This document shows positions 18,585 through 50,005 of a stretch of DNA of 64,000 bases, in pieces. The first letter of the stretch is position 1. Every line of letters starts with the position of its first letter. Source of the DNA: an uncultured bacterium (lineage in GTDB: Bacteria > Fidelibacterota > UBA2242). The notes beneath the pieces are model-generated. The model was not told where the DNA came from and did not search any database. It saw nothing but the letters and a program-made list of their open reading frames with translations. The stretch lies in the NCBI GenBank assembly GCA_964576275.1, contig CAZNUN010000008.1, forward strand, positions 32,441-96,440, read 5' to 3'. The position numbers and the translations under genes were made by a program.

Positions 18585-18862
18585 AAAATCTATCTGAGTT
18601 TAATTAACAATATGGGAAATATTAAAGTAAATTTTATTAACAATAGAAGGCAATTAGAAATATTGAAGATTTTACATGTACTTCTGATATGCCTTAATTT
18701 TAAACATGAAGTTTTAAAATGATTTATCCGATGTATATTGGAAAGGACTCAATTATAGCGAAACCAAAATCAAAAATATTTAGATATTTAAGAAAACTTC
18801 CCAGACCTATAAATTTTCATGTAATTATTAGCCTCATAAGTTAGTTGCTGTTAATATTTCGA

Positions 18863-19654: not shown

Positions 19655-19699
19655 ATCTCTAATCTCTTGTTATCTAACTTAAATATTATGACGAAATTT

Positions 19700-22162
19700 T
19701 TACCTCGCCAACACCATCTTTTTTACCTGAACATAATCGCCGGCAGTTAATTTGTAGAAGTAAATCCCGCTGGCGACGTTGTTGCCATGCGAGTCTCGGC
19801 CGTTCCAGATCAGGTGATAACGACCGGTTGGCTGGTGATTGTCCGCGAGAGTCGCAATTTTTTGTCCGAGTAGATTGTAAATCTCGAGCCTGACGTGGGA
19901 ATTCTGTGGCAATTCAAACTCAATGGTCGTCAGCGGATTGAAGGGATTGGGAAAATTCTGTCTGACTTGAAAAGTTTTAGGTTTTTGAGAATCATCAGGT
20001 TTCTCGATGATCTGAAATTCGCCATGATAGAGATTATCCGGTGAATTTTCCATAAAAAACGGCTGACTGGCCTTCATGTCCATTATCCCATCATACCATT
20101 GCGGCAGAGTCGGCGGCGTTTCACATGCTAACATCTCACGCCAGGCTTCGTCGGTCAGACGATTGGCGATTGGCTGAATGAATTCATAATATGAGAAGAT
20201 CGCCCCGCGCGTTAGGCGAAGCGTACCGCCTTCATTGATGATGACATTGATTTCCAGAGGATAACCGACGCCTTCCTCCAGACACTGATCCGAATTGGAG
20301 TCGGTATGCACATCGGCGACGACCGCCATGTCATCGCTGTCATAGTGCCAGGGATCCTCACCTTCGGAGACCAATTTTTGCATGACTTTGCCAAAGCAAT
20401 AAATGTTGGAGTATTCCTCATCTGTAAGTGGTGTATTCTCCAGTTCCTTGATCGAAACATCCCGTAAGAAAAGCAGGAGAGATTCAAAAAGCACAAGTTT
20501 ATCTTGAAATTTTTCAGTTAATATGTCCCTTGTAAGCAGTCCGTCCATTGTATAGCGCGTCAGGCTTGCCAGCCGGGCGTAAAGATGCGGATTAGGTTCC
20601 ACGTAACTTTTCGGCGGTCCGGGAGTGATACAGCAGGGCGTCATGCTTTGCTTGGCGTAGAGAATCGTATCGTGCCGTAATTCCGCCCAGGAAGCCAGAG
20701 CTGTCAGGAGTTCTTTGTCCATCCAGGCGATAGTCTGCATGAAAAACGGGTAGCCTTCGCCTTTTTCATATAGTAATGGCATCAGGCAATAGAGCCAGTT
20801 CCAGTATAAATTTTGTGCCCATTCGGCAGGTGAAATAGACGCGAATTCGGTCTTGAATTCGGTAATTTTTTCAGGATAATTCGGACAGGCTGTCTCGTTA
20901 TAAAGCGAATCCAGCAAATCGTAAGCCCGATCCGAGCCGAGAATCGTCATTATATCCAATCCTTTGGGGAAAAGACGCTGACCGACTTCAGGGTCGATAA
21001 GATGCGCGAACATATATGAATCGGGAATGAAACGCTGACCCATCAGCCTGAATCCTTTGTAGGTAGTAAAAGAGCCGTAAATCCAGTTCGGTATTTTCGA
21101 TTCCGGCAATTTTTGAGCTTCCGTCATAAAGGCGTCAAGCAAAGCCGAATTGGCAAGGCTATCGGCGGTAAGCGATAGAAAATTGGTACCGTAAATCTGT
21201 TCGGCGATAGATTTATAATCTGTAATATTGGGATCATCGGTTTTGCCGACGAAAAAGACAGTGGGTTCATAGATCATTTTCCATAAATCCAACAGAGAAG
21301 TCCCATCTGCTTCCAGATTATAGAGCATTTGAGTAAGCAACAGCGCCTGGAGGGTGTGTCTCCTCGCCAAGTCACCGAAATTTTCCGGCTCCATGGTGAA
21401 AATCGTCCAGCCTTGCCACATCATGGCTTTGAAGTAAGCCGTCAGCGTGTCATTCGTGGTGTAATGTCCGCGCGGGATGAATTGACAATAATCCAGTAAA
21501 TTGAATGGACCTAAGATGGGCGGAGTGTTAAATCCGTCATGATTGGCGATTAAAGTCAATTCCGAATCCACAAGCGCCGCAACCGGTTCTGGAACGATAA
21601 AATCATTGCCTTTCAATAATTTCTGCGATACGCACAGAAATGCTAGATTGCGCCGTAACGTCTCTTTAATTTCCGGTTCGGTTGCTGTATCATATTGCGG
21701 TTGGGTGGCGTCAATCAAAGTCTGGATTAAAAGTTCCAGAGCCGGTACGAATTTTTGAATTTCGATTTCGGCCAGAATCTTATCATAAAGAACATGATAA
21801 ATGTGCAGAACCGCGTCGGTAGTTACAAAAAGCGGCGTGCCTTCCCAGGTGCAGTCGTTGTAAATATCATATAACTGCTTGAACTGACTTCTCCGGACCG
21901 TGAAGTGGTTTTGAAGTAATAGCGCTGAGTCCACCGCACTGAATCCATAGAAGTAAGAAAAATTTTCAACGTTACTGAAATCGGGTTCGACGGTAAAAAG
22001 CGGTACGTTGGGAGTAAAATCGGCAGGATATGGCTGGTAAGTTCCAAAGTCGGTTTGAACATCTTCGGAAATGTTGGCAATCATCTGGAACTGAGCCTGC
22101 AACCCGGAAAAACAAAGAGCGAAGCATAGAACGAGTTTGAAAAATTCGTTAAAACGCTTCAT
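19700..22162 (-). CDS. Large secreted protein with a C-terminal T9SS sorting domain (CTD/Por_Secre_tail); last gene of the long minus-strand array
   Basis: The C-terminus 'FPNPFNPLTTIEFELPQNSHVRLEIYNLLGQKIATL...SGIYFYKLTAGDYVQVKKMVLAR' is a canonical T9SS CTD. The track ORF starts at 22201; the start was trimmed to ATG 22162 (MKRFNEF), with 'AAGGAGG' 7 nt upstream. Signal peptide follows. The ~700-aa body has no family I can name. Confidence 0.6.
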   Translation of the reverse strand: MKRFNEFFKLVLCFALCFSGLQAQFQMIANISEDVQTDFGTYQPYPADFTPNVPLFTVEPDFSNVENFSYFYGFSAVDSALLLQNHFTVRRSQFKQLYDIYNDCTWEGTPLFVTTDAVLHIYHVLYDKILAEIEIQKFVPALELLIQTLIDATQPQYDTATEPEIKETLRRNLAFLCVSQKLLKGNDFIVPEPVAALVDSELTLIANHDGFNTPPILGPFNLLDYCQFIPRGHYTTNDTLTAYFKAMMWQGWTIFTMEPENFGDLARRHTLQALLLTQMLYNLEADGTSLLDLWKMIYEPTVFFVGKTDDPNITDYKSIAEQIYGTNFLSLTADSLANSALLDAFMTEAQKLPESKIPNWIYGSFTTYKGFRLMGQRFIPDSYMFAHLIDPEVGQRLFPKGLDIMTILGSDRAYDLLDSLYNETACPNYPEKITEFKTEFASISPAEWAQNLYWNWLYCLMPLLYEKGEGYPFFMQTIAWMDKELLTALASWAELRHDTILYAKQSMTPCCITPGPPKSYVEPNPHLYARLASLTRYTMDGLLTRDILTEKFQDKLVLFESLLLFLRDVSIKELENTPLTDEEYSNIYCFGKVMQKLVSEGEDPWHYDSDDMAVVADVHTDSNSDQCLEEGVGYPLEINVIINEGGTLRLTRGAIFSYYEFIQPIANRLTDEAWREMLACETPPTLPQWYDGIMDMKASQPFFMENSPDNLYHGEFQIIEKPDDSQKPKTFQVRQNFPNPFNPLTTIEFELPQNSHVRLEIYNLLGQKIATLADNHQPTGRYHLIWNGRDSHGNNVASGIYFYKLTAGDYVQVKKMVLAR

Positions 22163-22219
22163 TTTTCGCCTCCTTTTTGTCCAATTAAAATTTATAGGCA
22201 AATTTATTAATAATCAACA

Positions 22220-24007: not shown

Positions 24008-24017
24008 ATTTGCTCCT

Positions 24018-25274
24018 TTATGCAACTGGATTCATGATTTTTCCGATGAACAGGATCGTGCCGGAAGCCCGCTCGCGGATCGCCAAAATAAAGGGACGAT
24101 CAACGCGCATTACCGTAATATCTTCCGTGTCAGCCGAGACCGATTTGTATGTAACCTCGACGGATGCCGCCGCGGCGGCTTCGGTGCCTTCTTCGTCAAC
24201 TTCAATAAACGATTTATGTCTGACTTCGCTGATATACAATTCATCGCCATCTTGATTGATACGGCTGAAATCAGCCTGATCGTTAAATGCGATTCCCATA
24301 CCGAGTTCTGTCAGCGGATCATTTAGCACCCGGAACCACTCGAGTTTGAATCTCGGCAAATAAAGACTGACGTTTGTCGTGGATAAGTCTGCGCTCAGAT
24401 TATTCCATTTTTCATCGGTCAAGCCGCTTATCAACGAGTCTAAATCGTCGCTGGATCCCGGCAGGAGTACCGTCATGGCAAAAAATCCATCGTTATACGG
24501 CAGGTCGATTATCTGAAGTTCGTCAGTCTCAGCATAGTCGAAGTCACTACGGAGCGACATCATCTGGCAGTTCACTGTTTCGTCATTATTAAGATAAAAC
24601 GGAGCCTCCTTTGTGTGTTCTTCATTGAACTGATAGGTCCAGGTGCCCTTGAAATAAATGGCGTTGAGCAGAAACATAACCGTGTTGGGATTGATCGGTT
24701 TCCCAATGAGTTGTTTAATGAGTCCTTCGGTTTGTTCTGATATCCAGGCATTCATTGTATCAACGGCGGCGTCCTGATTGAAATCAAGTCCCCGAACAAC
24801 TGCATCGAAATACGTCTGGTTCGTTGCGATAAATGCCGGCAAGACCGAGAATTCGTTCCGGTACCAAATCGAGTTTGCGATCCGGAATTTGACTTGCGCA
24901 TCAAGCGACCTCAGTAAATTGATCAGGCTTTGATATGATTGGTTGATTTCATCTTCGATAAGATTTTCGAAACGAAGCGTTGAATGTATTGCCTCAAGAG
25001 TAGTGCCCGCCGCGCCGTTCGCGGTCATTCCTAAAGCCATCGAAACCGAAACTGGTGATATAAACAGATTGCTATCGCCGACCTCTTCCGATAATACTTT
25101 GAACAGATCGAATCCGAATGAGTTACTCGATTCGATCAGAGACTGTTCGGATTTGCTAAGGTTTCTTGGTAATTGTGGAATACCATCGGAGATCGGCCCC
25201 GTGACGTCCGAACAGCTTGTTATCAATGTCATTAATATGAATGACAGGTATATATTTCGTGAGGATTTTTCCAT
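24018..25274 (-). CDS. Serpin (serine-protease inhibitor) lipoprotein, paralog 1
   Basis: Hinge and shutter motifs: 'FIEVDEEGTEAAAAASVEV...MRVDRPFILAIRERASGTILFIGKIMNPVA'. Lipobox 'LITSC'. The track start is a TTG; the start was trimmed to ATG 25274 (MEKSS), with 'AAGGAG' 6 nt upstream. Confidence 0.8.
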   Translation of the reverse strand: MEKSSRNIYLSFILMTLITSCSDVTGPISDGIPQLPRNLSKSEQSLIESSNSFGFDLFKVLSEEVGDSNLFISPVSVSMALGMTANGAAGTTLEAIHSTLRFENLIEDEINQSYQSLINLLRSLDAQVKFRIANSIWYRNEFSVLPAFIATNQTYFDAVVRGLDFNQDAAVDTMNAWISEQTEGLIKQLIGKPINPNTVMFLLNAIYFKGTWTYQFNEEHTKEAPFYLNNDETVNCQMMSLRSDFDYAETDELQIIDLPYNDGFFAMTVLLPGSSDDLDSLISGLTDEKWNNLSADLSTTNVSLYLPRFKLEWFRVLNDPLTELGMGIAFNDQADFSRINQDGDELYISEVRHKSFIEVDEEGTEAAAAASVEVTYKSVSADTEDITVMRVDRPFILAIRERASGTILFIGKIMNPVA

Positions 25275-25287
25275 CTTTTTCTCCTTT

Positions 25288-26529
25288 TTACTCAGCAACT
25301 GGATTCATGATTTTTCCGATGAACAGGATCGTGCCGGTATTTTTCTCACGTAGAAAAAAGATAAACGGCCGATCGACAATAAAGTAAACTTCCTCTGTAC
25401 CAATGGATGTTATTTCAAAAGATATAGACGTTACGGCGGCGGCCTCAGTACCTTCTTCATTGACATCCACGAAAGTCTTATGTTTTATGTTACTGATAAA
25501 TAGATCGTAATCCGGATTGATTTTATCGAAATTCGCTTCGGATGGTGAAAAGGCTTTTTGCATACCCAGCGCTTTTAATGTTGGGATCAAACCGATATTA
25601 TATTCGACTTTAAATTTCGGTAAGAAAATATTGACTTCGGTTTCGGTCAGACCGTTTATCCAATCCATCCAATTGCCAGCAGTCATTGCTGCCGCAACAG
25701 AATCGACATCCACTCCGGAGTTTGGTAGAATGACAGTCATACTGAAGCCGATTTCACAGTAAGTCAGGTCGGCGATCTGGATCTGGTCATTCGCAAAATA
25801 ACCATGAGTGGCTTTATGCCTCATCATTTCACAATTTGTCTGACTGCCGTCTTTCCGGTAGAATGACGTTTCCTGGGTGTTTTCATCATCGAACTCATAC
25901 GTCCAGGTGCCTTTGAAGTAAATGGCATTGATCAGGAACATGACAGTATAAGGATCAATCGGCGGATCGACGATCGTTGGGATTTTCTCATGAGTTTTTT
26001 CGTTTACCCAGGCATTGATTACGTCAGCCGCGTCACTGCGATTGAAGTCCAACTCCTGAACCTCAGCGTCGAAATAAGTGGTATTGATTACTAAGAAATC
26101 ATTCAATACCGAAAATCCGCTGCGATACCAGATAGAGTTGGCGATCTCGAAAGTGACATCCGGGTCGGCGGTCGCAAGCAGATCAATCAGACTCTGATAG
26201 GACTGATTGATTTCCTCGGCAGTCAGATCGCCATATTCCAGCATGGAGTGCATTTCACTGCGGGTCTCGCCGTCCGCGCCGTTATAAGCCATACCGAGTG
26301 CCATCGAAACACTCAGTGGCGAAATGAAGATATTTTTATCGGTCTCGGAGGAAACGATTTGCCGGAATAACTTCAGACCGAAATTATTATCGGCTTCCGT
26401 CACCTTCTTTTCTATGGCGCTCAGCTCGCGGATCGGCTCTGGTTTATCACCGCCGGTGATTTTCTCAGGACAGCGGCTCAAAAAAAGAAGTGGAAGCACT
26501 GTCAGAACAATAATTTTTCTGTTTGTCAT
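25288..26529 (-). CDS. Serpin (serine-protease inhibitor), paralog 2
   Basis: 'FVDVNEEGTEAAAVTSISFEI...FIVDRPFIFFLREKNTGTILFIGKIMNPVAE'. Same C-terminus as paralog 1. Start trimmed to ATG 26529 (MTNRKIIVLTVLPLLFLSRC), with 'GAGG' 5 nt upstream. Confidence 0.8.
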   Translation of the reverse strand: MTNRKIIVLTVLPLLFLSRCPEKITGGDKPEPIRELSAIEKKVTEADNNFGLKLFRQIVSSETDKNIFISPLSVSMALGMAYNGADGETRSEMHSMLEYGDLTAEEINQSYQSLIDLLATADPDVTFEIANSIWYRSGFSVLNDFLVINTTYFDAEVQELDFNRSDAADVINAWVNEKTHEKIPTIVDPPIDPYTVMFLINAIYFKGTWTYEFDDENTQETSFYRKDGSQTNCEMMRHKATHGYFANDQIQIADLTYCEIGFSMTVILPNSGVDVDSVAAAMTAGNWMDWINGLTETEVNIFLPKFKVEYNIGLIPTLKALGMQKAFSPSEANFDKINPDYDLFISNIKHKTFVDVNEEGTEAAAVTSISFEITSIGTEEVYFIVDRPFIFFLREKNTGTILFIGKIMNPVAE

Positions 26530-26681
26530 AGAAACCTCATCATTTATTTCCGCAATACTTAAAAACGACAATTCATCTATGACAAATAGCATTCCAAAAT
26601 CTTCCGACGGAGAAAACCTGTCCGGGATAGACAAACTCTCAGATTTCTGAGACTAACGCCGAAAAATTGAGAGAAGCTGAA

Positions 26682-27734
26682 TCAGTCGCCGCGATAGATC
26701 AGACCGAGACTGCCAAACCATTTATCGTAATATAATCCACAGTAATGGGTCTCGTTGCGCATGAAAGCCGCGCGGCCGGTGAGAGCCAGGTTTTTCCAGA
26801 ACGGCCATTCCCATCCGAAAAGCAATTGGTTTTGGACATTTTGCTCCGGGTCGGGATTGTAATAGAGGAAGTACTGACGTAAATCCGCCCGGTATTTTTT
26901 CAGGAAAACATCGGCGACGATCTGATAATAACACGGCCCGATCTTTCCGGAAAGGTAATAATTCAAACTGGCGCCGAGATATTCGGAGAATTGATTGTTG
27001 GAAGTGACTTCAACGAGTCTCAGACGCAGACCGTGAAGCGCCCGGCGCCGCCGTTCAAAACCGATCTGACCGAAGACATAGCTATCCCGCTGGAGGCCCA
27101 ATGTATCCAGTACGGAATTGTCTTCAGCCAGGACATTTCTGAAGGGATAATCAATTCCGATCCAGCCGCCTTGTGCTGAGAATACCAGACCCGGATTGAT
27201 CTGACGCCGGAGTTCGGCTGATCCGCCAAGATGACGATTGGTGAGGCATTTTTTATGGTGATATGAATTTTCGGCGGTTAGGATGCTGAAGATGGTTGTC
27301 CAGTGTTGAAAATTCCAGCCAGCGCCGATCCTGCCGTCGCTGTTATTGTAGAAAAAATCATCATACAGCCACCACTTTTGAAAAGTACTGACCGCCGACG
27401 TAATGAAGAGCGACCGGCTGAGATTATAATTAGCCTGGGCGATCAGGTTTAATGTGGCTTTATTTTCCGCGTGACGATCGTAAGCCAGAAAACCGCCGGT
27501 TGAGTTAATAGATACATTCAGACGTTGTTTGTTCAGCCGGTAGCTCAGGTTCGCTATAACCGGCATTACCACACTGTTTCTGGAAATGGAATCGGACTCA
27601 AAGATGTTCGTTTCCATACCGCCTTCAATCTTGAAATAGCCAGACAGGTTTTGTCCTCCCTGAATGCCGGCGGCGAGGTTCAGAAAAATCCCGAAATGAA
27701 TAATTAGGCGTTGGCGACCACTGATTGATAACAT
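26682..27734 (-). CDS. Hypothetical outer-membrane beta-barrel-like protein
   Basis: 350 aa. N-terminal hydrophobic segment, Y/W/F-rich alternating strands. No recognisable family. Confidence 0.35.
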   Translation of the reverse strand: MLSISGRQRLIIHFGIFLNLAAGIQGGQNLSGYFKIEGGMETNIFESDSISRNSVVMPVIANLSYRLNKQRLNVSINSTGGFLAYDRHAENKATLNLIAQANYNLSRSLFITSAVSTFQKWWLYDDFFYNNSDGRIGAGWNFQHWTTIFSILTAENSYHHKKCLTNRHLGGSAELRRQINPGLVFSAQGGWIGIDYPFRNVLAEDNSVLDTLGLQRDSYVFGQIGFERRRRALHGLRLRLVEVTSNNQFSEYLGASLNYYLSGKIGPCYYQIVADVFLKKYRADLRQYFLYYNPDPEQNVQNQLLFGWEWPFWKNLALTGRAAFMRNETHYCGLYYDKWFGSLGLIYRGD

Positions 27735-27745
27735 TCAGCGGAAAT

Positions 27746-28723
27746 TTACTTAATTCCGTTGATTTCCTGTAGTTGTTTCTGGTAATAGTTGCGGAGCGAG
27801 TCCATTTGGGCTATATACGATGGCAGGTTGTTGGTTGGAATTTTTTGAAAAAGCGACAGGTAATCCGCCGTCGTTGATATTTGAGTAGTGATGGGAAGAG
27901 CGGCATTATCCGTCTGGGATAAGGCGTCTTTTCCTCCGTTGTTATATGTGGGTTCTGTCCAGGTTGTCCCGTCGGTCTGATCGCGATCGTTATTTTGCAG
28001 AGCGATTTCCCGGTTAACTGCTTCTCCGCTGAAGCCGGTCATTTCCAGATTCAGCTGGTTCAGCCTCTGACGCAGGTCTCTTTCGGCAATGGCGGCGGTG
28101 ATAATCATATCTATCTGCCGGATTTTATCGTCGAGAATTCGGATGACATCGGTGCGGATCGCGGCGCTGTGTTTGTATTTGGTTAACAGGGCGATGACGT
28201 TTTCGTATTTATTGGATAAAACCGGTTCGTTCGGCGTTGGCGGTCGGCTGGCGATAATTTGTCCTCGTTGCTCGATTAACTCAATCAGTTCGCGGGTGAG
28301 ATTTTGTCGTTGGCGCGGATCGGCGGTGTGATCGTACCGCTGCAGGATGGATTCGATGCGTGTTGAAATGAGGGTGTAATATTTATTGAAAATTAGATCT
28401 ACGGAAGTTTTTTGGGTAACTAATTTTGTTCTGATGTCAGTCATTTTGGAGCTGACTTCGGCTTTGCGGGCGGTTAGACGGGAGATTTTTCTGTTTGTAT
28501 TCCAGTTGGCGTTTTCCGCCGAGCCGAGTCGTAAAATTTGGGCATCGAGCGCGGCGATATCTTTTTCGAGTTGACTGTAAGACAAAGTCAATTCATGATA
28601 TTTACTCAGGGTTTGAGCGTACTGGACTCGGTAATAAGCAAGGCTGTCAGTAGAGGTCGCATTCAGCTTAATCGTCAGCAGAAAGATGAGCGCAATGGTC
28701 ACAAGGCATAGATGTTTATTCAT
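27746..28723 (-). CDS. Secreted coiled-coil protein, encoded immediately downstream of the two-component system
   Basis: Signal peptide 'LVTIALIFLLTIKLNA'. Long heptad-like Q/L/R/E-rich helices. No recognisable enzymatic motif. Confidence 0.4.
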   Translation of the reverse strand: MNKHLCLVTIALIFLLTIKLNATSTDSLAYYRVQYAQTLSKYHELTLSYSQLEKDIAALDAQILRLGSAENANWNTNRKISRLTARKAEVSSKMTDIRTKLVTQKTSVDLIFNKYYTLISTRIESILQRYDHTADPRQRQNLTRELIELIEQRGQIIASRPPTPNEPVLSNKYENVIALLTKYKHSAAIRTDVIRILDDKIRQIDMIITAAIAERDLRQRLNQLNLEMTGFSGEAVNREIALQNNDRDQTDGTTWTEPTYNNGGKDALSQTDNAALPITTQISTTADYLSLFQKIPTNNLPSYIAQMDSLRNYYQKQLQEINGIK

Positions 28724-30092
28724 ATTCTTCCGGTTTAATGCTATACTTTTCGATTTTATAATAGAGAGTACCGGGCTTGATTTTCAGCTGTTCGGCGGCG
28801 CGCTGTTTAACGCCATGCTGGTCGTGCATAGCCTTAACGATCATTTCGCGTTCAATCCGCCCGATGTGAGTGGAAAAATCGCGATCCGGCGTTTTTTCTG
28901 CGCCTGAGGGAGTGGATGATTTTTCTGGTAAATCACTAAAGTCGAACAGTGTTTCCGAGAAAATATCCTCTTCTACGAAAACCAGCGCCCGCTCGATGAA
29001 ATTTTCCAGTTCGCGCACGTTGCCCGGCCAGGAGTAGGCGGTAAGGCGGTCAATGACGCCGGATTCGATTTGCGGCGTCTTACGTCCCTGTCGGGTGGCT
29101 TTAAGTTTCAGCAAATTATCAATAAGGAGTGGAATATCTGACCGACGTTCCCGCAAGGGTGGAATTGACAACGGAATGACATTTATACGATAGTACAAAT
29201 CGGAACGAAACTGGCCGTCCTTGATCTGTTGTTCCAGGTTTTTATTGGTAGCGCAGATCAGACGGAAATTGCTATGGATGAATTTTTCTCCGCCGACCCG
29301 CTGGAATTGTTTGGTCTGCAGAACGCGCAGAAGTTTAACCTGTAAACCGGCGGACATATCGCCGATCTCATCAAGAAACAGCGTGCCGCCGTGACTCTGT
29401 TCGAATTTTCCGGCGTGCGTTTTATGTGCACCGGTGAAAGCGCCTTTTTCATGCCCGAAGAGTTCGCTTTCCAGGATTGTTTCGGTCAGCGCACCGCAAT
29501 TGACTGCCAGAAACGGACCTTTATGCTGTTGACTTGCCTGATGAATCAGGCGAGCTACCAGTTCTTTACCGACACCGCTTTCACCAGTAATCAGCACCGG
29601 GCTGTCGCTCGGAGCGATTTTAGCGATTATCTGGCGGATTTGCCGGATGGCGGGCGAGTCGCCGATCAATACGGGAAGATCGGATTCTTGGTTAAGGGGT
29701 TTCTGTTGGTTCAGCCAACGGTGGTAGAGAATCTCAACTTTGCGGCGCAGTTCGGCCAGCGCGAAGGGCTTAGTGATAAAATCTTCGGCGCCGCATTTCA
29801 TGGCGTTCACCGCCAGGTCAACCGTGGCAAAGGCGGTTATCAGAACTATTGTGGTGGCAGGCTGCACCTCTTTGATTTTTTTCATAAGAGCCAGCCCGTC
29901 CATTCCCGGCATTTTTATATCGGTGATGATTAATTCAAAGGATTTATTCTGGATCGTTTCCCAGGCTTGTTGACCGTCACTGACCGTTGAGACTGCGTAA
30001 CCTTCTTTGACGAGCGAATCCCGCAGACCTTCACGCATGGATTGGTTGTCTTCGACGATTAGGATGCGATAGTTAACTGGCAGTGGATTCAT
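28716..30092 (-). CDS. Sigma54-dependent response regulator (NtrC/AtoC family: REC + AAA+ + Fis-type HTH)
   Basis: 'ILIVEDNQSMREG...ELIITDIKMPGMDGL' (REC), 'GESGVGKELVARLIH' (Walker A), 'ESELFGHEKGAFTGA' (GAFTGA sigma54-contact loop) and a C-terminal HTH. Confidence 0.85.
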   Translation of the reverse strand: MNPLPVNYRILIVEDNQSMREGLRDSLVKEGYAVSTVSDGQQAWETIQNKSFELIITDIKMPGMDGLALMKKIKEVQPATTIVLITAFATVDLAVNAMKCGAEDFITKPFALAELRRKVEILYHRWLNQQKPLNQESDLPVLIGDSPAIRQIRQIIAKIAPSDSPVLITGESGVGKELVARLIHQASQQHKGPFLAVNCGALTETILESELFGHEKGAFTGAHKTHAGKFEQSHGGTLFLDEIGDMSAGLQVKLLRVLQTKQFQRVGGEKFIHSNFRLICATNKNLEQQIKDGQFRSDLYYRINVIPLSIPPLRERRSDIPLLIDNLLKLKATRQGRKTPQIESGVIDRLTAYSWPGNVRELENFIERALVFVEEDIFSETLFDFSDLPEKSSTPSGAEKTPDRDFSTHIGRIEREMIVKAMHDQHGVKQRAAEQLKIKPGTLYYKIEKYSIKPEEYE

Positions 30093-31519
30093 ATTTTCTC
30101 CGGGAGAATTAGGACAAATTCCGTGCCGCTTTGATCCGAGTGATCTAAATAGAGACGCCCGCCATGTTGTTCGACGAGAGATTTAGCGATCGATAATCCC
30201 AGACCGACGCCGTCCGCTTTGGTGCTGAAAAAAGCCTCAAAAATTTGAGACCGGATTTCCGGGGAAATCGGCGATCCACTGTTGCGGAAGTGGATAGCGA
30301 TATGATCTGTATGATTGACGATCTCGACCTTGACCTGCGGTGTCAGTCGGTTGGCTTCGAGGCCGTTGCGGATCAGATTAGCCAGACAGGAACGGAGTTT
30401 TCCAGGGTTGGCTTTGACCTGCGCCCGGCCGCTGATATTGATTGCGGCTTCCGGGAAATCGCGTTTTAATTCAAGGCTGACTTCATTTAAAAGATCGCTT
30501 AGTTCGCAAGTGATCAGATTGGCTTCCATAGGCCGGGCATAGGATAGGAAAGATTCGACGATCAGCGCCAGTCGGTCAACTTCGCGGGCAATTGCCGCCG
30601 CATATTTGGCGGCGGGGGTTGCTTCGCCGGTTTCTTCGAGCAATAGTTCGGAATTGATTTTCATGCCGCCCAGTGGATTACGGATTTCATGGGCGACCGA
30701 TGCTAAAAATTGTTTGTTTTGTTTCTCGCGCTGACTCAGCTCGGCGTGCATTTTCTGCATTGTCTGGCCCAGAAAGCCGATTTCGTCCCGGCGGGGATTA
30801 GGAACTGAAAGATCGCTGCGTCCCTGACCGATAGCCATAGCGTAGTCAGTCAGGTTTTCGAGCGGCCGGGTCAGCGTGCGCGCCAGAACCATAACCATCC
30901 CGATGCTGATGATCAAAACGACCGCCGTAAGGCTGAAAATCTGACGGCGTAATTTGGCGGTAATTCCTAAAAATTCGGCGCTGGCATCCAGTCCGAGGAT
31001 TACCGTTTGTTCGGGATTCCGCAGTACCTCAGAAAAAACCGATTTATAGAATTGTCCGTTCCGATCAACAAAGAGCGGCGAGGTTATGATTTGGCCAGCG
31101 GCGGCGGATGAGATTTCATGAGTATGCAGTCGGGATGATAGTATGGCGCTTTCGGAATTTCCGGCAACTGCCAGCAAGCCTTTATGAGGAGCAATCAAAT
31201 ACAAGGCCTGGGCGTCGAAAATTTCAGCCTGACCATTTAACCAACGCTGTAAAGAATCGCGGACGGAGTTTAGCGCCGGATATGAAGCTAACAGATTGAC
31301 GAGATTCGGATCGGCGTGAGAACAGATCAACTGGATATTTTGTTCCAATTGTCTGGTTAATTGGTTTTCAAGCGCCTGGCGGGTTTGCCAGTAAACAGGA
31401 TAAGTGATCGCCAGGGTGACGAAAATTACCAGCAATCCGGTAAAGATCGCAAACTTCCAGGCCAGTCTGACCGGTGGTTGATTTGGTTTGGCGGATTCGC
31501 CTAAGGGATAATTATTCAT
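30089..31519 (-). CDS. Sensor histidine kinase (2 TM with a periplasmic sensor, HisKA + HATPase_c)
   Basis: 'LASVAHEIRNPLGGM' H-box. The C-terminal part 'GVGLGLSIAKSLVEQHGGRLYL' has G-box-like motifs. ATGA overlap with the regulator. Confidence 0.8.
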   Translation of the reverse strand: MNNYPLGESAKPNQPPVRLAWKFAIFTGLLVIFVTLAITYPVYWQTRQALENQLTRQLEQNIQLICSHADPNLVNLLASYPALNSVRDSLQRWLNGQAEIFDAQALYLIAPHKGLLAVAGNSESAILSSRLHTHEISSAAAGQIITSPLFVDRNGQFYKSVFSEVLRNPEQTVILGLDASAEFLGITAKLRRQIFSLTAVVLIISIGMVMVLARTLTRPLENLTDYAMAIGQGRSDLSVPNPRRDEIGFLGQTMQKMHAELSQREKQNKQFLASVAHEIRNPLGGMKINSELLLEETGEATPAAKYAAAIAREVDRLALIVESFLSYARPMEANLITCELSDLLNEVSLELKRDFPEAAINISGRAQVKANPGKLRSCLANLIRNGLEANRLTPQVKVEIVNHTDHIAIHFRNSGSPISPEIRSQIFEAFFSTKADGVGLGLSIAKSLVEQHGGRLYLDHSDQSGTEFVLILPEKI

Positions 31520-31533
31520 CGGATTTTTAGTAG

Positions 31534-33189
31534 TTAAATATTAGGATTGTCTCCACACACCTGCCTGAAAATACGCAGAAAATTACCTCCCATGATCTTG
31601 GCGATTTCTTCCTCAGTATAGCCTTCATTCAGCAAAGCGCCGGTCAATCTCGGAAAATAGGATACATCCTGTAGATCACCCGGCCAGACTTCGATCCCGT
31701 CAAAATCCGAACCGATGCCGACATAATCAACGCCAACCAGGTTAACGATATAATTGATATGGTTGATGACGTCATTCAGAGAGGCATTGCTTGAACCGTT
31801 TAAAAAGTAAGGGTAGAAGCAGGCGCCGATCAATCCTCCTCCGGCGGCAATTGCCCGTATCTGATCGTCGCTCAAATTGCGGTAATGGTTACAGAGCGCC
31901 CGGGCATTTGAATGGGACGCTATGATCGGATTTTTGGAGGTTGCCAGGATATCGGAAATGGTCTGGATGCCGACATGTGAGACGTCAATTATCATGCCGA
32001 GTGAGTCCATCGCGGCTATTACTTTCCGTCCGAAGGCATTCAAGCCACCGGCGCGGGTTCCGCGGGCTTCATCTTTGGCGGAAACAGCCCAGGACGTGCT
32101 GTTATTCCAGGTGATGGTCATGCCGCGCACGCCCAGATCGTAGAAATATTTTAATTTATCGACATCGTTTTCAATATAATGACCACCTTCCAGGAAGATT
32201 ATTCCGGCGATTCGATCATCATTTACCGCACTGTCCAGGGCGGTATAATTTCTGATATGTTGAATTGTTTCTGGATTGGCAGTAAACTCGGCGGTAAGGC
32301 GGTTATATTGATTGATGGCCGTCTGATAAGCGCCGTTTGAAGCGCTGTCCCAGATGGCGAAAACCTGGATGTCCAATCCGCCATCCTGGAGGCGGGGAAT
32401 ATCGGTATGTAAATATGAATGACGGTCTGCAAGGTGATAATTGGCATAGGCAGATTTAGCCATTTGCTCGGAAATATCGTTGTGCATGTCGGCAACGCGG
32501 ACATAGGAATGCACAGATTGCAGAAAGGTTGTAAAATAGGTATGCTCGGAAGTCGTAATCAGCGTATCGGAATGGTAGCCGAATTTCGAGCTGACGATCC
32601 GCAGATCGGAGACGTTCGGTTTGGATAAGAACCGGGCTTGGTCGTCGGTTGGGCTGATATCGCCTAACCCGCCGGTTAGACTGCCGTCCAGTTGGATCAT
32701 TTTACGCGTGATTTGTTTTTGACCGGTTCGAATAGTATAAAAGTAAACTCCAGCGCTTCCTTGGCTTTTCCAGGTTGTCGAATAAGAACCTGCGGGGAGA
32801 TATTTGTGACAGCGATCGATTGTCTGACCCAGCAGATTGGTGACCGTGATCTCAATCGCGCCGTCACTTGGTAAATAAAAGGGCAGATTTGTCACCGGAT
32901 TAAATGGATTGGGGTAATTCTGCAGAACGCGGAATTCATCCGGCAAGTTAAACTCGTCACTTTTCATCTTGTTTGGAAAGGACAGGCTCCAGTCGCCATT
33001 GCCGTCGGTAAAGGTTGAATCGCAGGAGCCCGATTCGGTATCGCAGATCGTGATCCGAACGTTGCGAATGGGAGCATCGGTGTGGAAATCGGAAACCCGG
33101 CCGCCATAGGTTGCCGACCAGGCGGATAAAGCCGGGATGGCAATCAAGGCGCCCTGTAAAATTCGTCGGATTATATTTTGACCGGTCAT
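31534..33189 (-). CDS. Membrane dipeptidase (peptidase M19, renal-dipeptidase family) with an internal, N-terminally placed T9SS-CTD-like/FlgD-Ig domain
   Basis: M19: 'VADMHNDISEQ', 'GLDIQVFAIW', 'GIIFLEGGHYIEN', 'VSHVGIQTI', 'ASHSNARALCNHYRNLSDDQIR' and 'GIGSDFDGI'. Upstream of it (aa ~85-170): 'LQNYPNPFNPVTNLPFYLPSDGAIEITVTNLLGQTI...GVYFYTIRTGQKQITRKMIQL', which is CTD-like but not C-terminal. Signal peptide. Confidence 0.7.
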   Translation of the reverse strand: MTGQNIIRRILQGALIAIPALSAWSATYGGRVSDFHTDAPIRNVRITICDTESGSCDSTFTDGNGDWSLSFPNKMKSDEFNLPDEFRVLQNYPNPFNPVTNLPFYLPSDGAIEITVTNLLGQTIDRCHKYLPAGSYSTTWKSQGSAGVYFYTIRTGQKQITRKMIQLDGSLTGGLGDISPTDDQARFLSKPNVSDLRIVSSKFGYHSDTLITTSEHTYFTTFLQSVHSYVRVADMHNDISEQMAKSAYANYHLADRHSYLHTDIPRLQDGGLDIQVFAIWDSASNGAYQTAINQYNRLTAEFTANPETIQHIRNYTALDSAVNDDRIAGIIFLEGGHYIENDVDKLKYFYDLGVRGMTITWNNSTSWAVSAKDEARGTRAGGLNAFGRKVIAAMDSLGMIIDVSHVGIQTISDILATSKNPIIASHSNARALCNHYRNLSDDQIRAIAAGGGLIGACFYPYFLNGSSNASLNDVINHINYIVNLVGVDYVGIGSDFDGIEVWPGDLQDVSYFPRLTGALLNEGYTEEEIAKIMGGNFLRIFRQVCGDNPNI

Positions 33190-33255: not shown

Positions 33256-33373
33256 GATTGCCAAATTGGAATTATCAGAAATTGTAATTGTATTTTGAAA
33301 GCACTCAGCAAGAATTACTTCCCTTTCTCCGATGAAAAACTTAAATTTATTAAGTTAACAACGGAGATTTGTG

Positions 33374-34687
33374 ATGATTTTCGGAATCCGGCAAGAAGAT
33401 AAAAATGAATGGGAAGCGCGCACACCTTTAACCCCGGCGCATGTCAAAACACTGATGGACAATTATTTCGTAAAATTCATCGTTCAGCCATCACCAATCC
33501 GGGCTTTCCGGGATGAAGATTACCGGGCGGCGGGGGCGGAAATCAATCCCGATCTCAGCACTTGCGACGTTATCCTGGCGGTCAAAGAAATTCCAGTGGA
33601 ATTATTGCTCCCGAATAAAAAATACCTGTTTTTCTCTCACACGATCAAAGGTCAGCGCTACAATATGCCGATGCTGAAACGACTGGTGGATTTGCGGACT
33701 ACGCTGATCGATTATGAAAGGATTGTCGACGAGAAGGGCAAGCGCCTGGTGTTTTTCGGAAGATTTGCCGGAATCGCCGGGATGCTGGATACGCTTTGGG
33801 CGCTCGGCCAGCGTCTGGAACTGGAAGGTTTTACGACTCAATTCTCCGAAGTGAAACGCGCTTTGCATTATGCCGATCTGGAAAGTGCTAAAAAAGCCCT
33901 GACCATCGTTGGTAAGAAAATCAGAGCCCGAGGGATTCCCGGTGCTGCGACGCCTCTGGTTTTCGGCTTTGCCGGGTATGGCAATGTTTCCCGCGGAGCG
34001 CAGGAAATTTTCGATTTGCTGCCTTTCGAGGAGGTCAAACCGCAAAATCTGACAGAAATTTCTCGGCAGGATAACTTTTCAGCCAATCGTTTATACAAGG
34101 TCGTCTTTACCGAAGCCGATATGTTTCGCCCCAAGAATCCAACGGATCGTTTTGATCTTCAGGATTATTTTTCGCATCCTGAAAAGTACGAATCGCGATT
34201 TGAAGAATATATTCCATATCTGAGCGTTCTAGTAAATGCGATTTACTGGGACGCACGCTGTCCGAAATTAGTGACGCGAAAATATCTGCGAAAAGCTTAC
34301 AAAACCGGGCAGCCGCGATTTCTGAAGGTCATCGGTGACATTACCTGCGATATAAATGGTTCGATCGAATGCAATCTGGCGGCTACGACACCCGGCGATC
34401 CGGTTTATGTCTATGATCCTTTAACTGAGAAAATCACTTCCGGCGTCGCTGGACGCGGTCCGGTCGTATTAGCTGTCGATAATTTACCCTGTGAATTGCC
34501 GCGCGACTCCTCGGCGATGTTCGGCGATGTCCTGATTAATTTTATCGCGCAGCTGAGTAAAGCCGATTTTTCAAAGCCGTTTGAAACCGTAAATCTGCCG
34601 CCGGAACTGAAGCGCGCAACACTGTTGTACGCCGGAGAATTCACCCCTGATTTTATCTATATGTCCAAATATATCGAGAATCTTTGA
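33374..34687 (+). CDS. Lysine-ketoglutarate reductase (saccharopine dehydrogenase, L-lysine-forming; AlaDH/PNT fold), matching the LKR half of animal AASS
   Basis: 'GIRQEDKNEWEARTPLTPAHVK' matches AASS '[22 protein letters not shown]'. 'YLFFSHTIKGQRYNMPMLKRLVDLRTTLIDYERIVDEKGKRLVFFGRFAGIAGM' matches '[54 protein letters not shown]'. The track start 33371 is a GTG; the start was trimmed to the adjacent ATG, with 'GGAG' upstream. Confidence 0.8.
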   Translation: MIFGIRQEDKNEWEARTPLTPAHVKTLMDNYFVKFIVQPSPIRAFRDEDYRAAGAEINPDLSTCDVILAVKEIPVELLLPNKKYLFFSHTIKGQRYNMPMLKRLVDLRTTLIDYERIVDEKGKRLVFFGRFAGIAGMLDTLWALGQRLELEGFTTQFSEVKRALHYADLESAKKALTIVGKKIRARGIPGAATPLVFGFAGYGNVSRGAQEIFDLLPFEEVKPQNLTEISRQDNFSANRLYKVVFTEADMFRPKNPTDRFDLQDYFSHPEKYESRFEEYIPYLSVLVNAIYWDARCPKLVTRKYLRKAYKTGQPRFLKVIGDITCDINGSIECNLAATTPGDPVYVYDPLTEKITSGVAGRGPVVLAVDNLPCELPRDSSAMFGDVLINFIAQLSKADFSKPFETVNLPPELKRATLLYAGEFTPDFIYMSKYIENL

Positions 34688-34730
34688 TTTTAAAACAGAT
34701 GAATTTTACGCAAATCAATAAGGAGAGTTT

Positions 34731-36050
34731 ATGAAGAAAATTTTATTACTGGGGGCAGGCTTGGTTTCGCGGCCATTGACCCGCTATTTACTGGATGTTC
34801 CCGAATTTGAAATCACTGTCGCTACCCGGACGGTCAGTAAAGCCGAACACCTGATCGAAGGCCATCCGCGCGGGAAGGCTATAGCGCTCAATGTCGAAAA
34901 CGTCGATGAATTGCGCCGCCTGGTCAGCAAGTGCGATCTGGCGATCAGTCTGTTGCCGTATATTCATCATGTCAAGGTCGCCAACCTGTGTATCGAGTAT
35001 AAAAAACACATGGTGACGACTTCCTATATCAGTCCGGCTATGAAAGCCCTGGAAGATCAGGCCAAAGCCGCCGGTATTTTGATTCTGAATGAAATCGGTG
35101 TCGATCCGGGCATTGATCATATGTCGGCCATGCGCATCATACACGCCGTCGAAAAGAAGGGCGGCAGGGTCGTGAGTTTCAAGTCATACTGCGGCGGACT
35201 GCCGGCTCCGGAAGCCAATACTAATCCGTATGGTTACAAATTCAGTTGGAGTCCGCGCGGAGTGTTGATGGCCGGACGCAACGATGCTAAATATCTGGAA
35301 AACGGTAAAACTGTCGAGATTCCCGGTAAGCAATTATTTAAAAATCACTGGCCGTTGACCGTCGAAGGTATGAATTTTGAAACGTATCCGAACCGGAATT
35401 CTTTACCGTATATCGAGACTTACGGGCTGAAAGATGTGCATACTATGTTTCGCGGAACGATTCGCAATATCGGCTGGTGCGATACGCTATACTGCATCGC
35501 CAAACTCGGCGTCCTCAGCGATGAAAAACGAACCGACCTGGCCGGATTGACCTTTGACAGTCTGACCCGCAAATTGATCGACGCCAAACCAGATGAAAAC
35601 ACACGCTCGGCTTTAAAGCGTTTTCTGGGGGCCGATGCCAACGATAAAGTTCTTTCCAATCTGGAATGGCTGGGCTTGTTGAGCGATGAAACCCTGCCGG
35701 AGACCGATCCGACTCTACTGGATGTCATGACAGCTCGTTTTCTGGCGAAAATGCCTTACGCCGCAGAGGAACGCGATATGCTCGTTCTGTATCATGAATT
35801 CATGGCTGAATATCCGGGAAAGAAAGAAAAGATCACCTCGACCATGGTCGATTTCGGAATTCCCGGCGGCGACTCATCGATGGCGCGTACCGTCAGCCTG
35901 CCGGCTGCGATTGCCACCCGGTTGATCCTCGAAAACAAGATCAATCTGACTGGAGTGCTGGGGCCGGTTATGCCGGAAGTGTATAATCCGGTCCTGGACG
36001 AGCTGGAAACTTTGGATATTGTATGCAAGGAGCAAACTTTTCCACTCTGA
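34731..36050 (+). CDS. Saccharopine dehydrogenase (NADP+, L-glutamate-forming), matching the SDH half of AASS
   Basis: '[17 protein letters not shown]' (Rossmann), '[61 protein letters not shown]' and '[28 protein letters not shown]' are near-identical in pattern to AASS '[28 protein letters not shown]'. SD 'AAGGAGAG'. Confidence 0.85.
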   Translation: [439 protein letters not shown]

Positions 36051-46325: not shown

Positions 46326-46338
46326 ATTTTTACCATCG

Positions 46339-48642: not shown

Positions 48643-48704
48643 ACCTTCAAAATATTCAGGACTGGCTATCTTAATAGACAGCCAGTCCTTTTTTAATCAA
48701 GTCA

Positions 48705-49886: not shown

Positions 49887-50005
49887 TCTCTTTTAATTTC
49901 AAAGAAACTTCATTAAAATCATTGCGGAATGAGTGTAATCTCTTCGGAGATTACGATTGTTCGGCCCGGAGAAAATGCGCAATCATTAACTCCGGGCTTC
50001 TGCTT

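What the first reader, a model, noticed from the sequence alone, without database searches (positions are those of the whole stretch)
31534..33189. M19 membrane dipeptidase carrying a T9SS-CTD-like domain in front of, not after, the catalytic domain
The 'NYPNPFNP...LP...G..I......G.YFY.....K.I.L' module that normally ends T9SS substrates is at residues ~85-170, followed by the complete M19 domain. An internal CTD cannot act as a C-terminal sorting signal.

It may serve as an Ig-like spacer, or the protein may be processed. Either way the architecture is unusual. The gene also heads the sigma54 two-component/serpin array.
Basis: seen in the sequence. Interest (0 to 1): 0.5.

Follow-up and report, generated by a model that had tools for sequence, protein, structure and literature searches.

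The report
Secretion-tail domain nested at enzyme's N-terminus
A zinc dipeptidase carries, near its start instead of at its end, a complete copy of the "tail" domain that normally marks proteins for type IX secretion; the copy is inserted inside another small domain, and the same front-end module recurs on many unrelated proteins, which suggests an undescribed N-terminal form of this sorting signal.

Summary
ORF 31534-33189 (-) encodes 551 aa. Residues 92-165 pass the curated cutoffs of TIGR04183 and PF18962 (T9SS type A CTD), and residues 228-543 form a complete M19 domain with intact metal-binding motifs. It is not an artefact: more than 100 homolog clusters at about 50% identity share the layout.

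2. The module is not specific to M19. Signal peptide + half-sandwich + CTD + half-sandwich also heads proteins with FGE-sulfatase, Big_5/beta-helix, LVIVD, Fib_succ_major or dockerin domains.
3. Internal copies form a distinct subtype. Terminal CTDs typically end ...KKMxLL(K/R)-stop, whereas internal ones read ...KKMxLLDG(G/Q) (50/53 against 2/77).

The functionally important Lys is kept. The CTD is more conserved (54% identity) than its flanks (about 35%). None of 192 carriers has a second, terminal CTD. A PorU-like gene lies in the window.

Best reading, inferred and not shown: an N-terminal, domain-inserted variant of the T9SS sorting or anchoring domain. Main rival: an exapted structural sandwich on a periplasmic enzyme.

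The parts
31534..33189 (-). Whole gene: exported M19 dipeptidase with an N-terminal nested CTD module (551 aa + stop)
33115..33189 (-). Residues 1-25: Sec-type signal peptide (MTGQNIIRRILQGALIAIPALSAWS|A), no lipobox Cys
   Evidence: Read from the sequence. A hydrophobic N-terminus is present in all aligned homologs. No signal-peptide predictor was run.
32971..33114 (-). Residues 26-73: N-terminal half (4 strands) of a CarboxypepD_reg / transthyretin-like sandwich
   Evidence: PF13620 matches profile positions 4-43 only. Strands at 24-34, 45-50, 56-60 and 66-73.
32938..32970 (-). Residues 74-84: linker 1, poorly conserved, low pLDDT at 77-80
32689..32937 (-). Residues 85-167: complete T9SS type A CTD-type beta-sandwich (QNYPNPFNP ... 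GSAGVYFYTI ... TRKMIQL) with near-invariant K163
32614..32688 (-). Residues 168-192: conserved D168-G169 junction (consensus LDGGxxGGL) followed by a low-complexity linker
   Evidence: D168, G169 and G174 are at least 90% conserved. DG follows 50/53 internal CTDs against 2/77 terminal ones. pLDDT below 50 at 183-188.
32512..32613 (-). Residues 193-226: C-terminal half (3 strands) of the same CarboxypepD_reg sandwich
   Evidence: Strands at 195-201, 208-213 and 218-225. After in-silico excision of the CTD, Pfam alignments run across the junction. The spliced profile matches one continuous domain of 8qox_B.
31555..32511 (-). Residues 227-545: Peptidase M19 TIM-barrel with HND, EGGH, DVSH, SHS, RN and GSDFDG motifs; near-invariant Cys545 in the C-terminal QVCG
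   Evidence: PF01244 338 bits. Foldseek E about 1e-31 to 3id7/1itq. Residue alignment to 3id7. Invariant columns.
19712..19954 (-). Comparator: canonical terminal CTD (residues 750-830 of 833) of the DUF3160 protein 19700..22201
58556..63463 (+). PorU-like C25 peptidase (1635 aa) with its own terminal TIGR04183 domain: evidence for T9SS-type machinery in this genome
   Evidence: PF01364 258 bits. NF033707 PorU 337 bits, below the 420 equivalog cutoff, and TIGR04183 at 1539-1627.
28716..31519 (-). Downstream same-strand histidine kinase (30089..31519) and sigma-54 response regulator (28716..30092), 14 nt after the M19 stop; linkage conserved only in the close lineage

Best explanation
What it is (shown). 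The gene encodes a Sec-exported zinc dipeptidase of family M19. Its N-terminus is a composite module: a CarboxypepD_reg-type beta-sandwich with a complete T9SS type A sorting domain (CTD) inserted into one of its loops. This module is a conserved, portable unit. It consists of a signal peptide, a half-sandwich, a CTD with its NYPNPFNP motif near residue 85, a PhiPhi-Asp-Gly junction starting 82-83 residues after that motif in almost all cases, a linker, and the second half-sandwich. It heads many unrelated passenger proteins in non-Bacteroidota FCB-group bacteria.

How it most likely works (inferred). The nested CTD still serves as the T9SS-related recognition and/or anchoring domain, in place of a C-terminal one. 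After Sec export, the folded CTD sits on two flexible tethers above the sandwich. PorV-family and translocon proteins would recognise it as a folded domain, and the dipeptidase would be delivered to, or held at, the cell surface. The Asp-Gly that replaces the terminal Lys/Arg and stop may mimic the missing C-terminal carboxylate or mark a processing site. Because both tethers return to one sandwich, the enzyme would stay attached whether or not a PorU-type sortase cuts a tether. The CTD could also be kept as a permanent anchor, as in PorU and PorZ. The enzyme would then cleave dipeptides outside the cytoplasm for nutrient scavenging.
For: Domain identity and nesting:
- TIGR04183 and PF18962 are above cutoff at 92-165.
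- With the CTD excised in silico, CarboxypepD_reg alignments cross the junction in M19 members and in 10/10 non-M19 proteins, 9 of them above the gathering score.
- In the AF2 models (pLDDT 89 and 80), strands flank the CTD on both sides.
- The spliced profile aligns continuously to 8qox_B residues 135-214.

Support for a sorting or anchoring role:
- The module is promiscuous. It is fused to M19, FGE-sulfatase, Big_5+beta-helix, Big_5+LVIVD, Fib_succ_major, dockerin and unknown passengers. From my knowledge this is typical of sorting modules, and these passenger types are typical of surface proteins.
- The CTD is far better conserved (54%) than its flanking half-domains (34-36%).
- It keeps the near-invariant Lys (K163). 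This is the only conserved, functionally important residue on the translocon-facing surface of type A CTDs, whose other motifs merely specify the fold (PMC10994853).
- The junction is sharp and conserved: DG in 50/53 internal against 2/77 terminal CTDs, with Asp at the position of the terminal K/R.
- None of 192 carriers with more than 100 aa after the junction has a second, terminal CTD.
- T9SS-type machinery is present: a PorU-like gene in the window, and a PorV/PorQ-family gene next to the Ignavibacterium ortholog.
- The near-invariant C-terminal Cys545 is compatible with an oxidising compartment.
Against: - There is no experimental evidence that a non-terminal CTD is accepted by any T9SS.
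- The export signal has been mapped to the last two strands, and truncating the last residues blocks export (PMC4804311), so a free C-terminus might be required.
- In the translocon complex about 40% of the CTD surface is buried in the SprA pore and PorV loops. A CTD tethered at both ends and followed by a 40-kDa enzyme may not fit.
- The carriers are mostly from phyla where T9SS has not been studied experimentally.
- The PorU-like protein scores below the equivalog cutoff.
- A dipeptidase would also make sense in the periplasm.
- Mutual exclusivity with terminal CTDs would also be seen if these proteins simply stay in the periplasm.
- The hit lists are biased towards the query, some proteins are fragments, and I chose the splice points by eye.
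Confidence: 0.45

Rival explanations
1. Exapted structural domain. The CTD-type sandwich lost its sorting role when it was inserted into the CarboxypepD_reg domain. It now serves as a rigid spacer, an oligomerisation surface or a ligand-binding surface. The proteins are exported by Sec only and work in the periplasm, where the M19 enzyme cleaves imported dipeptides.
For: The position is internal, and 118/120 ordinary CTDs are terminal. The conserved CTD motifs are fold determinants and not contact residues, so their conservation could reflect folding alone. The terminal K/R is lost. Ig-like domains of this superfamily are known as inserted structural domains (FlgD, from memory). Periplasmic dipeptide hydrolysis is physiologically sensible. 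No carrier has any other outer-membrane export signal that I could detect.
Against: The CTD is markedly more conserved than the sandwich that hosts it (54% against about 35%). The functionally important Lys is retained. The DG junction is conserved at a nearly fixed spacing across unrelated passengers. The passengers (dockerin, Big_5, LVIVD, Fib_succ_major, beta-helix) are, from my knowledge, typical of surface proteins and not periplasmic ones. A purely structural role does not explain why the module always sits directly after the signal peptide.
Confidence: 0.35
2. Processed two-piece protein. The chain is cut at or near the LDGG junction, or in some strains ends there at a stop codon. This releases a small signal-peptide/half-sandwich/CTD protein, which behaves as an ordinary T9SS substrate, from the enzyme. 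The enzyme then acts separately or stays bound through sandwich complementation.
For: A close relative carries a segregating in-frame TAA exactly after LDGG, on two haplotype backgrounds. It gives a 169-170-aa protein ending at the CTD plus a separate M19 ORF. Free-standing proteins of about 167 aa with half-sandwich + canonical terminal CTD exist (P0169, P0186, P0208, P0262). The junction motif is conserved and followed by a flexible Gly-rich stretch.
Against: No known protease or autoprocessing motif corresponds to LDGG. In the stop-codon allele the M19 part lacks a signal peptide and has only a TTG start, so it looks like loss of function and not a working split. Intact alleles exist in the same 90% cluster (P0124). 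More than 100 clusters keep one continuous ORF.
Confidence: 0.12
3. Artefact. The ORF is a spurious fusion of a small CTD protein gene and an M19 gene, caused by a sequencing or assembly error or a lost stop codon in this one genome.
For: One relative (L081) does have a stop codon between the two parts.
Against: The exact 551-aa protein occurs on 12 contigs from independent samples. More than 100 clusters at about 50% identity from several phyla have the same continuous layout. The two halves of one domain lie on either side of the CTD.
Confidence: 0.01

Closest known systems
T9SS type A C-terminal sorting domain (TIGR04183 / PF18962) of canonical T9SS cargo
   Different: It lies at residues 85-167 of 551 and not at the C-terminus. 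It is inserted inside another domain. The final Lys/Arg and stop are replaced by Asp-Gly-Gly plus a linker. The passenger is C-terminal to it and not N-terminal.
[not shown]
   Same: These are precedents for a CTD that is not removed and serves to hold a protein on PorV/PorQ at the cell surface. The nested CTD could likewise be a permanent anchor.
   Different: Their CTDs are still at the C-terminus. No binding partner has been shown for the nested module.
Mammalian renal dipeptidase DPEP1 and bacterial Sco3058 (Peptidase M19)
   Same: Same TIM-barrel fold and metal-binding/catalytic motifs (Foldseek E about 1e-31; alignment). DPEP1 is a surface-anchored ectoenzyme with a near-C-terminal interchain Cys (from memory). 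This family has a near-invariant Cys545.
   Different: DPEP1 is anchored by a C-terminal GPI, and Sco3058 has no such module. Here the candidate targeting or anchoring module is N-terminal.
CarboxypepD_reg / transthyretin-like domains (SusC N-terminal extension 9hfj, carboxypeptidase D TTL domain 5aq0, SlaB 8qox_B)
   Same: The two flanking segments together match these single domains in sequence (after splicing) and in the 3D model.
   Different: Here the domain is interrupted after about profile position 43 by an insert of about 120 residues containing a whole CTD.
FlgD hook-capping protein (Ig-like/Fn3 domain inserted in a tudor-like domain; from memory)
   Same: A related Ig-like domain (FlgD_ig, which co-hits many of the non-M19 modules) is used as a nested insertion in another small domain.
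   Different: The host domain and biological context differ. The window protein does not hit FlgD_ig at E<=1.

Membership tests
Peptidase M19 (membrane/renal dipeptidase) | Full-length match to PF01244 above the gathering score | tested here: met
   338 bits against a cutoff of 26, profile positions 4-319 of 319
Peptidase M19 (membrane/renal dipeptidase) | Binuclear-zinc and catalytic motifs (HxD, EGGH Glu, two His, Asp; substrate-binding Arg) | tested here: met
   H236/D238, E334, H405, H426, R437 and D495/D497 are invariant in 44 sequences and align to 3id7. Assignment of roles is from knowledge of DPEP1/Sco3058.
Peptidase M19 (membrane/renal dipeptidase) | TIM-barrel fold like solved M19 enzymes | tested here: met
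   Foldseek E 3e-31 to 9e-31, TMt 0.78-0.82 to 9h0b, 3id7 and 1itq
Peptidase M19 (membrane/renal dipeptidase) | Dipeptidase activity | not testable with these tools
   Needs an enzyme assay
T9SS type A sorting domain (TIGR04183 / PF18962) | HMM match above the curated cutoff | tested here: met
   TIGR04183 40.7 bits (cutoff 23) and PF18962 29.7 bits (cutoff 27), residues 92-165
T9SS type A sorting domain (TIGR04183 / PF18962) | Beta-sandwich fold of solved CTDs | tested here: met
   [not shown]
T9SS type A sorting domain (TIGR04183 / PF18962) | Located at the extreme C-terminus, ending in a basic residue | tested here: not met
   384 residues follow it. Asp-Gly replaces the terminal K/R. 118/120 reference CTDs are terminal.
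T9SS type A sorting domain (TIGR04183 / PF18962) | Conserved, functionally important Lys near the end of the CTD | tested here: met
   K163 is at least 90% conserved. Its role is taken from PMC10994853.
T9SS type A sorting domain (TIGR04183 / PF18962) | N-terminal Sec signal peptide on the same protein | tested here: inconclusive
   The typical n-h-c region and an AWS|A site were read by eye. No predictor was available.
T9SS type A sorting domain (TIGR04183 / PF18962) | T9SS machinery encoded in the genome | tested here: inconclusive
   A PorU-like C25 protein is in the window, at 337 bits against a cutoff of 420. A PorV/PorQ-family gene (214 bits, cutoff 90) lies beside the Ignavibacterium ortholog. 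The core genes sprA and gldKLMN were not seen in 64 kb.
T9SS type A sorting domain (TIGR04183 / PF18962) | T9SS-dependent export, with CTD removal or retention on PorV | not testable with these tools
   Needs genetics and proteomics
CarboxypepD_reg (PF13620) | One contiguous domain of about 82 residues matching the profile end to end above the gathering score | tested here: not met
   Native protein: profile positions 4-43 only, 24.4 bits, below 32.3
CarboxypepD_reg (PF13620) | The two flanking segments together make one domain (split domain) | tested here: met
   [not shown]
FlgD Ig-like domain (PF13860) | HMM match | tested here: not met
   No hit at E<=1 for the window protein. Many non-M19 modules hit both PF13860 and PF18962.

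The most novel reading that the evidence does not exclude
The nested module is an undescribed N-terminal class of T9SS signal. The translocon and PorV recognise the CTD as a folded domain without needing a free C-terminus. The conserved Asp-Gly that replaces Lys/Arg-COOH supplies a mimic of the terminal carboxylate or a sortase site. Because the CTD is looped out of a CarboxypepD_reg sandwich, cutting a tether and attaching a lipid or glycan would leave the passenger held at the surface by a two-chain sandwich. This would be a way to anchor proteins by their N-terminal end, used by many surface enzymes and dockerin proteins in Ignavibacteriota, Marinimicrobia, KSB1, Zixibacteria, Latescibacterota and relatives.
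Probability: 0.3. Interest if true: 0.8.

Novelty: new variant of a known kind. Interest (0 to 1): 0.6.

Why it matters
T9SS cargo is defined, predicted and annotated by a C-terminal domain. A conserved N-terminal, domain-inserted version would have three consequences if it is functional.

1. Secretome predictions that require a terminal CTD miss a class of cargo. NCBI already names some members 'T9SS type A sorting domain-containing protein' without regard to position.
2. The question of whether the T9SS reads a free C-terminus or only a folded domain becomes directly testable, using natural variants: K/R-stop against Asp-Gly, and a natural stop-codon allele.
3. It would offer a route to N-terminal surface display in FCB bacteria.

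Even if it is not functional as a signal, it is a clean case of a sorting domain exapted by nested insertion and then spread as a unit across protein families.

Tried and rejected
- **Fusion or frameshift artefact:** rejected.
- **'FlgD-Ig only, unrelated to T9SS CTDs':** rejected for this protein. TIGR04183 and PF18962 are above cutoff and there is no FlgD_ig hit.
- **Genome-contig scan with the family alignment:** the generic N[YF]PNPFNP pattern swamped it, and only one M19 locus (L001) came back. I reused the loci as a baseline for CTD position.
- **HMM of the M19-family C-half:** it failed to detect the second half-sandwich outside the family. I replaced it with inspection and a splice test.
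- **Functional link to the sigma-54 two-component/serpin array:** the context is conserved only in the close lineage (L081, L084) and not in Ignavibacterium (L082) or KSB1 (L083), so it was not used as evidence of function.
- **The 1163-aa neighbour of the PorV-family gene in L082:** no NCBIfam hit, so I did not call it PorU.
- **Literature:** searches for internal or N-terminal CTDs, 'membrane dipeptidase' + T9SS, and Por_Secre_tail + internal found no description. The TANFOR toxin paper is not a precedent.
- **AFDB50 fold search:** not available.
- **A regex suggesting 11 carriers end like a CTD:** false positives from the M19 tail ...FEKVCKK.
Full report
**1. The observation**

The ORF at 31534..33189 on the minus strand encodes 551 aa.
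- Pfam places Peptidase_M19 at residues 228-543 (338 bits) and Por_Secre_tail at 92-165 (29.7 bits, cutoff 27). It also gives a partial CarboxypepD_reg hit at 30-70, covering only profile positions 4-43 of 82.
- NCBIfam gives TIGR04183, the T9SS type A sorting domain, at 92-165 with 40.7 bits against a cutoff of 23.
- The same genome has an ordinary terminal CTD of the same subtype. It sits on the DUF3160 protein at 19700..22201, residues 750-830 of 833, and is 37% identical to the internal copy (E 1e-18). The alignment runs to the final ...KKMV.

To put a number on 'unusual', I searched 80 FCB-group genome loci with an HMM of the family's CTD. Of 120 CTD-type domains, 118 end within 5 residues of a stop codon and one within 6-15. 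The only one followed by a long extension (378 aa) is an M19 homolog.

**2. Not an artefact, and a conserved family**

- The exact 551-aa protein is on 12 contigs from independent samples.
- The large-database search returned more than 100 clusters of about 543 aa at about 50% identity with PF13620 + PF18962 + PF01244. Source names include Ignavibacteria, Neomarinimicrobiota, KSB1 and Zhuqueibacterota.
- In a 44-sequence alignment the CTD motifs are invariant or nearly so: N91, P93-P98, T100, G121, G134, G147, K163, M164, Q166, D168 and G169.
- Mean pairwise identity is 0.54 for the CTD, 0.34 and 0.36 for the flanking segments, and 0.63 for the catalytic domain.
- The M19 domain has all its metal-binding and catalytic motifs. 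Its model matches solved M19 enzymes at Foldseek E about 1e-31.

**3. The CTD is nested inside another domain**

Residues 193-226 read like the missing second half of CarboxypepD_reg. Three tests support this.

(a) Splice test. With residues 75-189 removed in silico, Pfam alignments to CarboxypepD_reg run across the junction.
- The window protein rises from 24.4 to 29.4 bits, and its alignment extends from profile 4-43 to 4-63.
- P0003 and P0099 exceed the gathering score.
- P0096 covers profile positions 2-78 of 82.

(b) Structure.
- The AF2 model of the full protein (pLDDT 89.4) has four strands before the CTD, at least six in it and three after it. pLDDT is low only in the two linkers.

(c) Profile search. 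A profile of the spliced halves aligns as one uninterrupted stretch (positions 7-84) to 8qox_B residues 135-214, E 4.9e-4.

Caveat: the tools give no residue-level 3D contacts, so the pairing of the halves rests on these indirect lines.

**4. The module is general**

A search of 1.84 billion representatives with residues 23-228 gave 10,328 proteins at E<=1e-10. Among the best 150, 56 have the CTD at about residues 80-180 with more than 60 residues, up to 1030, after it. Ten long examples were scanned with Pfam.
- Eight show the half-CarboxypepD_reg (profile about 1-43) immediately before the CTD.
- Nine show a Por_Secre_tail hit at about residues 86-184. P0155 shows only the half-sandwich.
- Downstream they carry FGE-sulfatase, Big_5 + beta-helix, Big_5 + LVIVD, Fib_succ_major + Big_13, a further CarboxypepD_reg domain, or nothing known.

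Their sequences show the same order of parts. A splice test on ten of them gave CarboxypepD_reg alignments across the junction in all ten, nine above the gathering score. I chose those splice points by eye.

A profile of 21 such modules then found further proteins in the 5.8-billion database. Of the top 120, 84 have the junction. They include a large clade with ...RRMVLIDGQAG..., often followed by dockerin domains. The few named sources are Melioribacteraceae, Ignavibacteriaceae, Zixibacteria and Latescibacterota.

**5. A distinct subtype**

- Terminal CTDs in these lists mostly end ...(K/R)KMxLL(K/R)-stop.
- Internal ones continue ...(K/R)KMxLL-D-G-(G/Q/S/A). DG is present in 50 of 53 internal copies and 2 of 77 terminal ones.
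- The junction starts 82-83 residues after the start of the NYPNPFNP motif in almost all cases (one exception at 70). The Asp sits at the position of the terminal basic residue.
- None of 192 carriers with more than 100 residues after the junction (117 M19, 75 others) has a second CTD at its C-terminus.

**6. What is known about recognition**

- Cryo-EM of substrate-bound translocons shows that the conserved type A motifs specify the fold and do not contact the machinery.
- The only conserved, functionally important surface residue is a Lys near the CTD's C-terminus. About 40% of the CTD surface is buried in SprA and the PorV loops (PMC10994853). That Lys corresponds to K163 here.
- The experimental evidence I could read concerns truncation of the last residues and sufficiency of the last 22 residues (PMC4804311). 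I found no test of a C-terminal extension.
- 'An internal CTD cannot work' is therefore untested.
- T9SS-type machinery is present in these lineages. The window encodes a PorU-like C25 peptidase with its own terminal CTD (below the equivalog cutoff). In Ignavibacterium the M19 ortholog lies next to a PorV/PorQ-family gene.

**7. Interpretation**

Shown: the protein is a Sec-exported M19 dipeptidase whose N-terminus is a conserved, portable composite module with a complete type A CTD looped out of a CarboxypepD_reg sandwich.

Inferred: the module is a sorting or anchoring device that takes the place of a C-terminal CTD. The supporting points are promiscuity across surface-type passengers, a position directly after the signal peptide, conservation above that of its host domain, retention of the key Lys, the conserved Asp-Gly junction, and mutual exclusivity with terminal CTDs. 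I put this at about 0.45.

The main rival, at about 0.35, is that the sandwich was exapted for a structural role and these proteins stay in the periplasm. A processing model has some support from a natural stop-codon allele, at about 0.12. Artefact is excluded.

**8. Novelty**

Four literature searches found no description of an internal or N-terminal T9SS CTD, or of this M19 architecture. The domain hits themselves are precomputed in public databases, and some members are auto-named 'T9SS type A sorting domain-containing protein'. The architecture is therefore visible in databases but, as far as I could find, uninterpreted. I rate it a new variant of a known kind, with interest 0.6.

Noticed in passing
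L081:3482-5131 (relative at 69% identity); also P0124, P0121/L084, P0125: A segregating in-frame stop lies exactly after the CTD. The codon after ...RKMIQLDGG is CAA (Gln) in P0124 and P0121, and TAA in L081 and in the 170-aa P0125. Each allele occurs on two different N-terminal haplotypes, and the stop is linked to IGQKQ as opposed to IGQQQ. The stop allele gives a 169-170-aa signal-peptide/half-sandwich/CTD protein. It also leaves an M19 ORF with no signal peptide and only a TTG start. Whether this is a working split or a loss-of-function allele is unresolved.
   Followed up: partly
window 58556-63463 (+): A 1635-aa Peptidase_C25 protein matches the PorU sortase model (337 bits, below the 420 cutoff) and a PorU2-related model. 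It has a CARDB-like region and its own terminal TIGR04183/FlgD_ig domain. It is much longer than P. gingivalis PorU.
   Followed up: partly
L082:8897-9910 (-), next to the Ignavibacterium M19 ortholog at L082:7001-8629: A PorV/PorQ-family outer-membrane protein (214 bits, cutoff 90) lies convergent to the M19 gene. It is followed by a 1163-aa protein with no family hit and by a TonB-dependent receptor. Twenty similar places were not shown. Whether the adjacency is conserved more widely was not examined.
   Followed up: no
window 19700-31519 (-): A tightly packed same-strand array lies downstream of the M19 gene: histidine kinase, sigma-54 response regulator, two proteins of 325 and 350 aa with no family, two tandem serpins (448 and 426 aa), a 601-aa protein with no family, and a DUF3160 protein with a terminal CTD. 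Tandem bacterial serpins beside a two-component system and secreted proteins may form a protease-control unit.
   Followed up: no
window 31555-31563 (residue 545 region); alignment A1: A near-invariant Cys sits in the C-terminal ...QVCG motif of the M19 family. It is the only conserved Cys. From memory, it recalls the interchain disulfide Cys near the C-terminus of human DPEP1. It would suggest a disulfide-linked dimer in an oxidising compartment.
   Followed up: no
P0169, P0186, P0208, P0262 (about 167-171 aa): Small free-standing proteins consist of a signal peptide, the same half-sandwich segment and a canonical terminal CTD ending ...LLK/LVR. They could be the evolutionary source of the nested module, or a complementing partner.
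   Followed up: no
P0286-P0362: A large clade of module carriers rich in Ala/Gly/Arg has the junction ...RRMVLIDGQAG and a VYGLTVSGxGLVPYVDPAFRV half-sandwich. It is often followed by dockerin (PF00404), and some members come from genomes with contigs above 6 Mb. The phylum was not identified.
   Followed up: no
window 33371-36050 (+): Divergent from the M19 gene are an AlaDH/PNT-type gene and a saccharopine dehydrogenase gene, a lysine-ketoglutarate reductase / saccharopine pathway pair. The pairing with M19 is conserved in L081, L084 and L085.
   Followed up: no
window 18001-20000 and 46001-50000: Two stretches have clearly lower G+C (0.36-0.38, against about 0.47 elsewhere). The second covers a CarboxypepD_reg/Plug TonB-dependent receptor gene (46339-48642) and a DUF3103 gene (48705-49886).
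   Followed up: no
window residues 174-180 of the M19 protein (about 32650-32670): The conserved GGLxxI stretch after the LDGG junction is predicted as an ordered beta-strand in the full-length model (pLDDT about 88 in both models).
   Followed up: no
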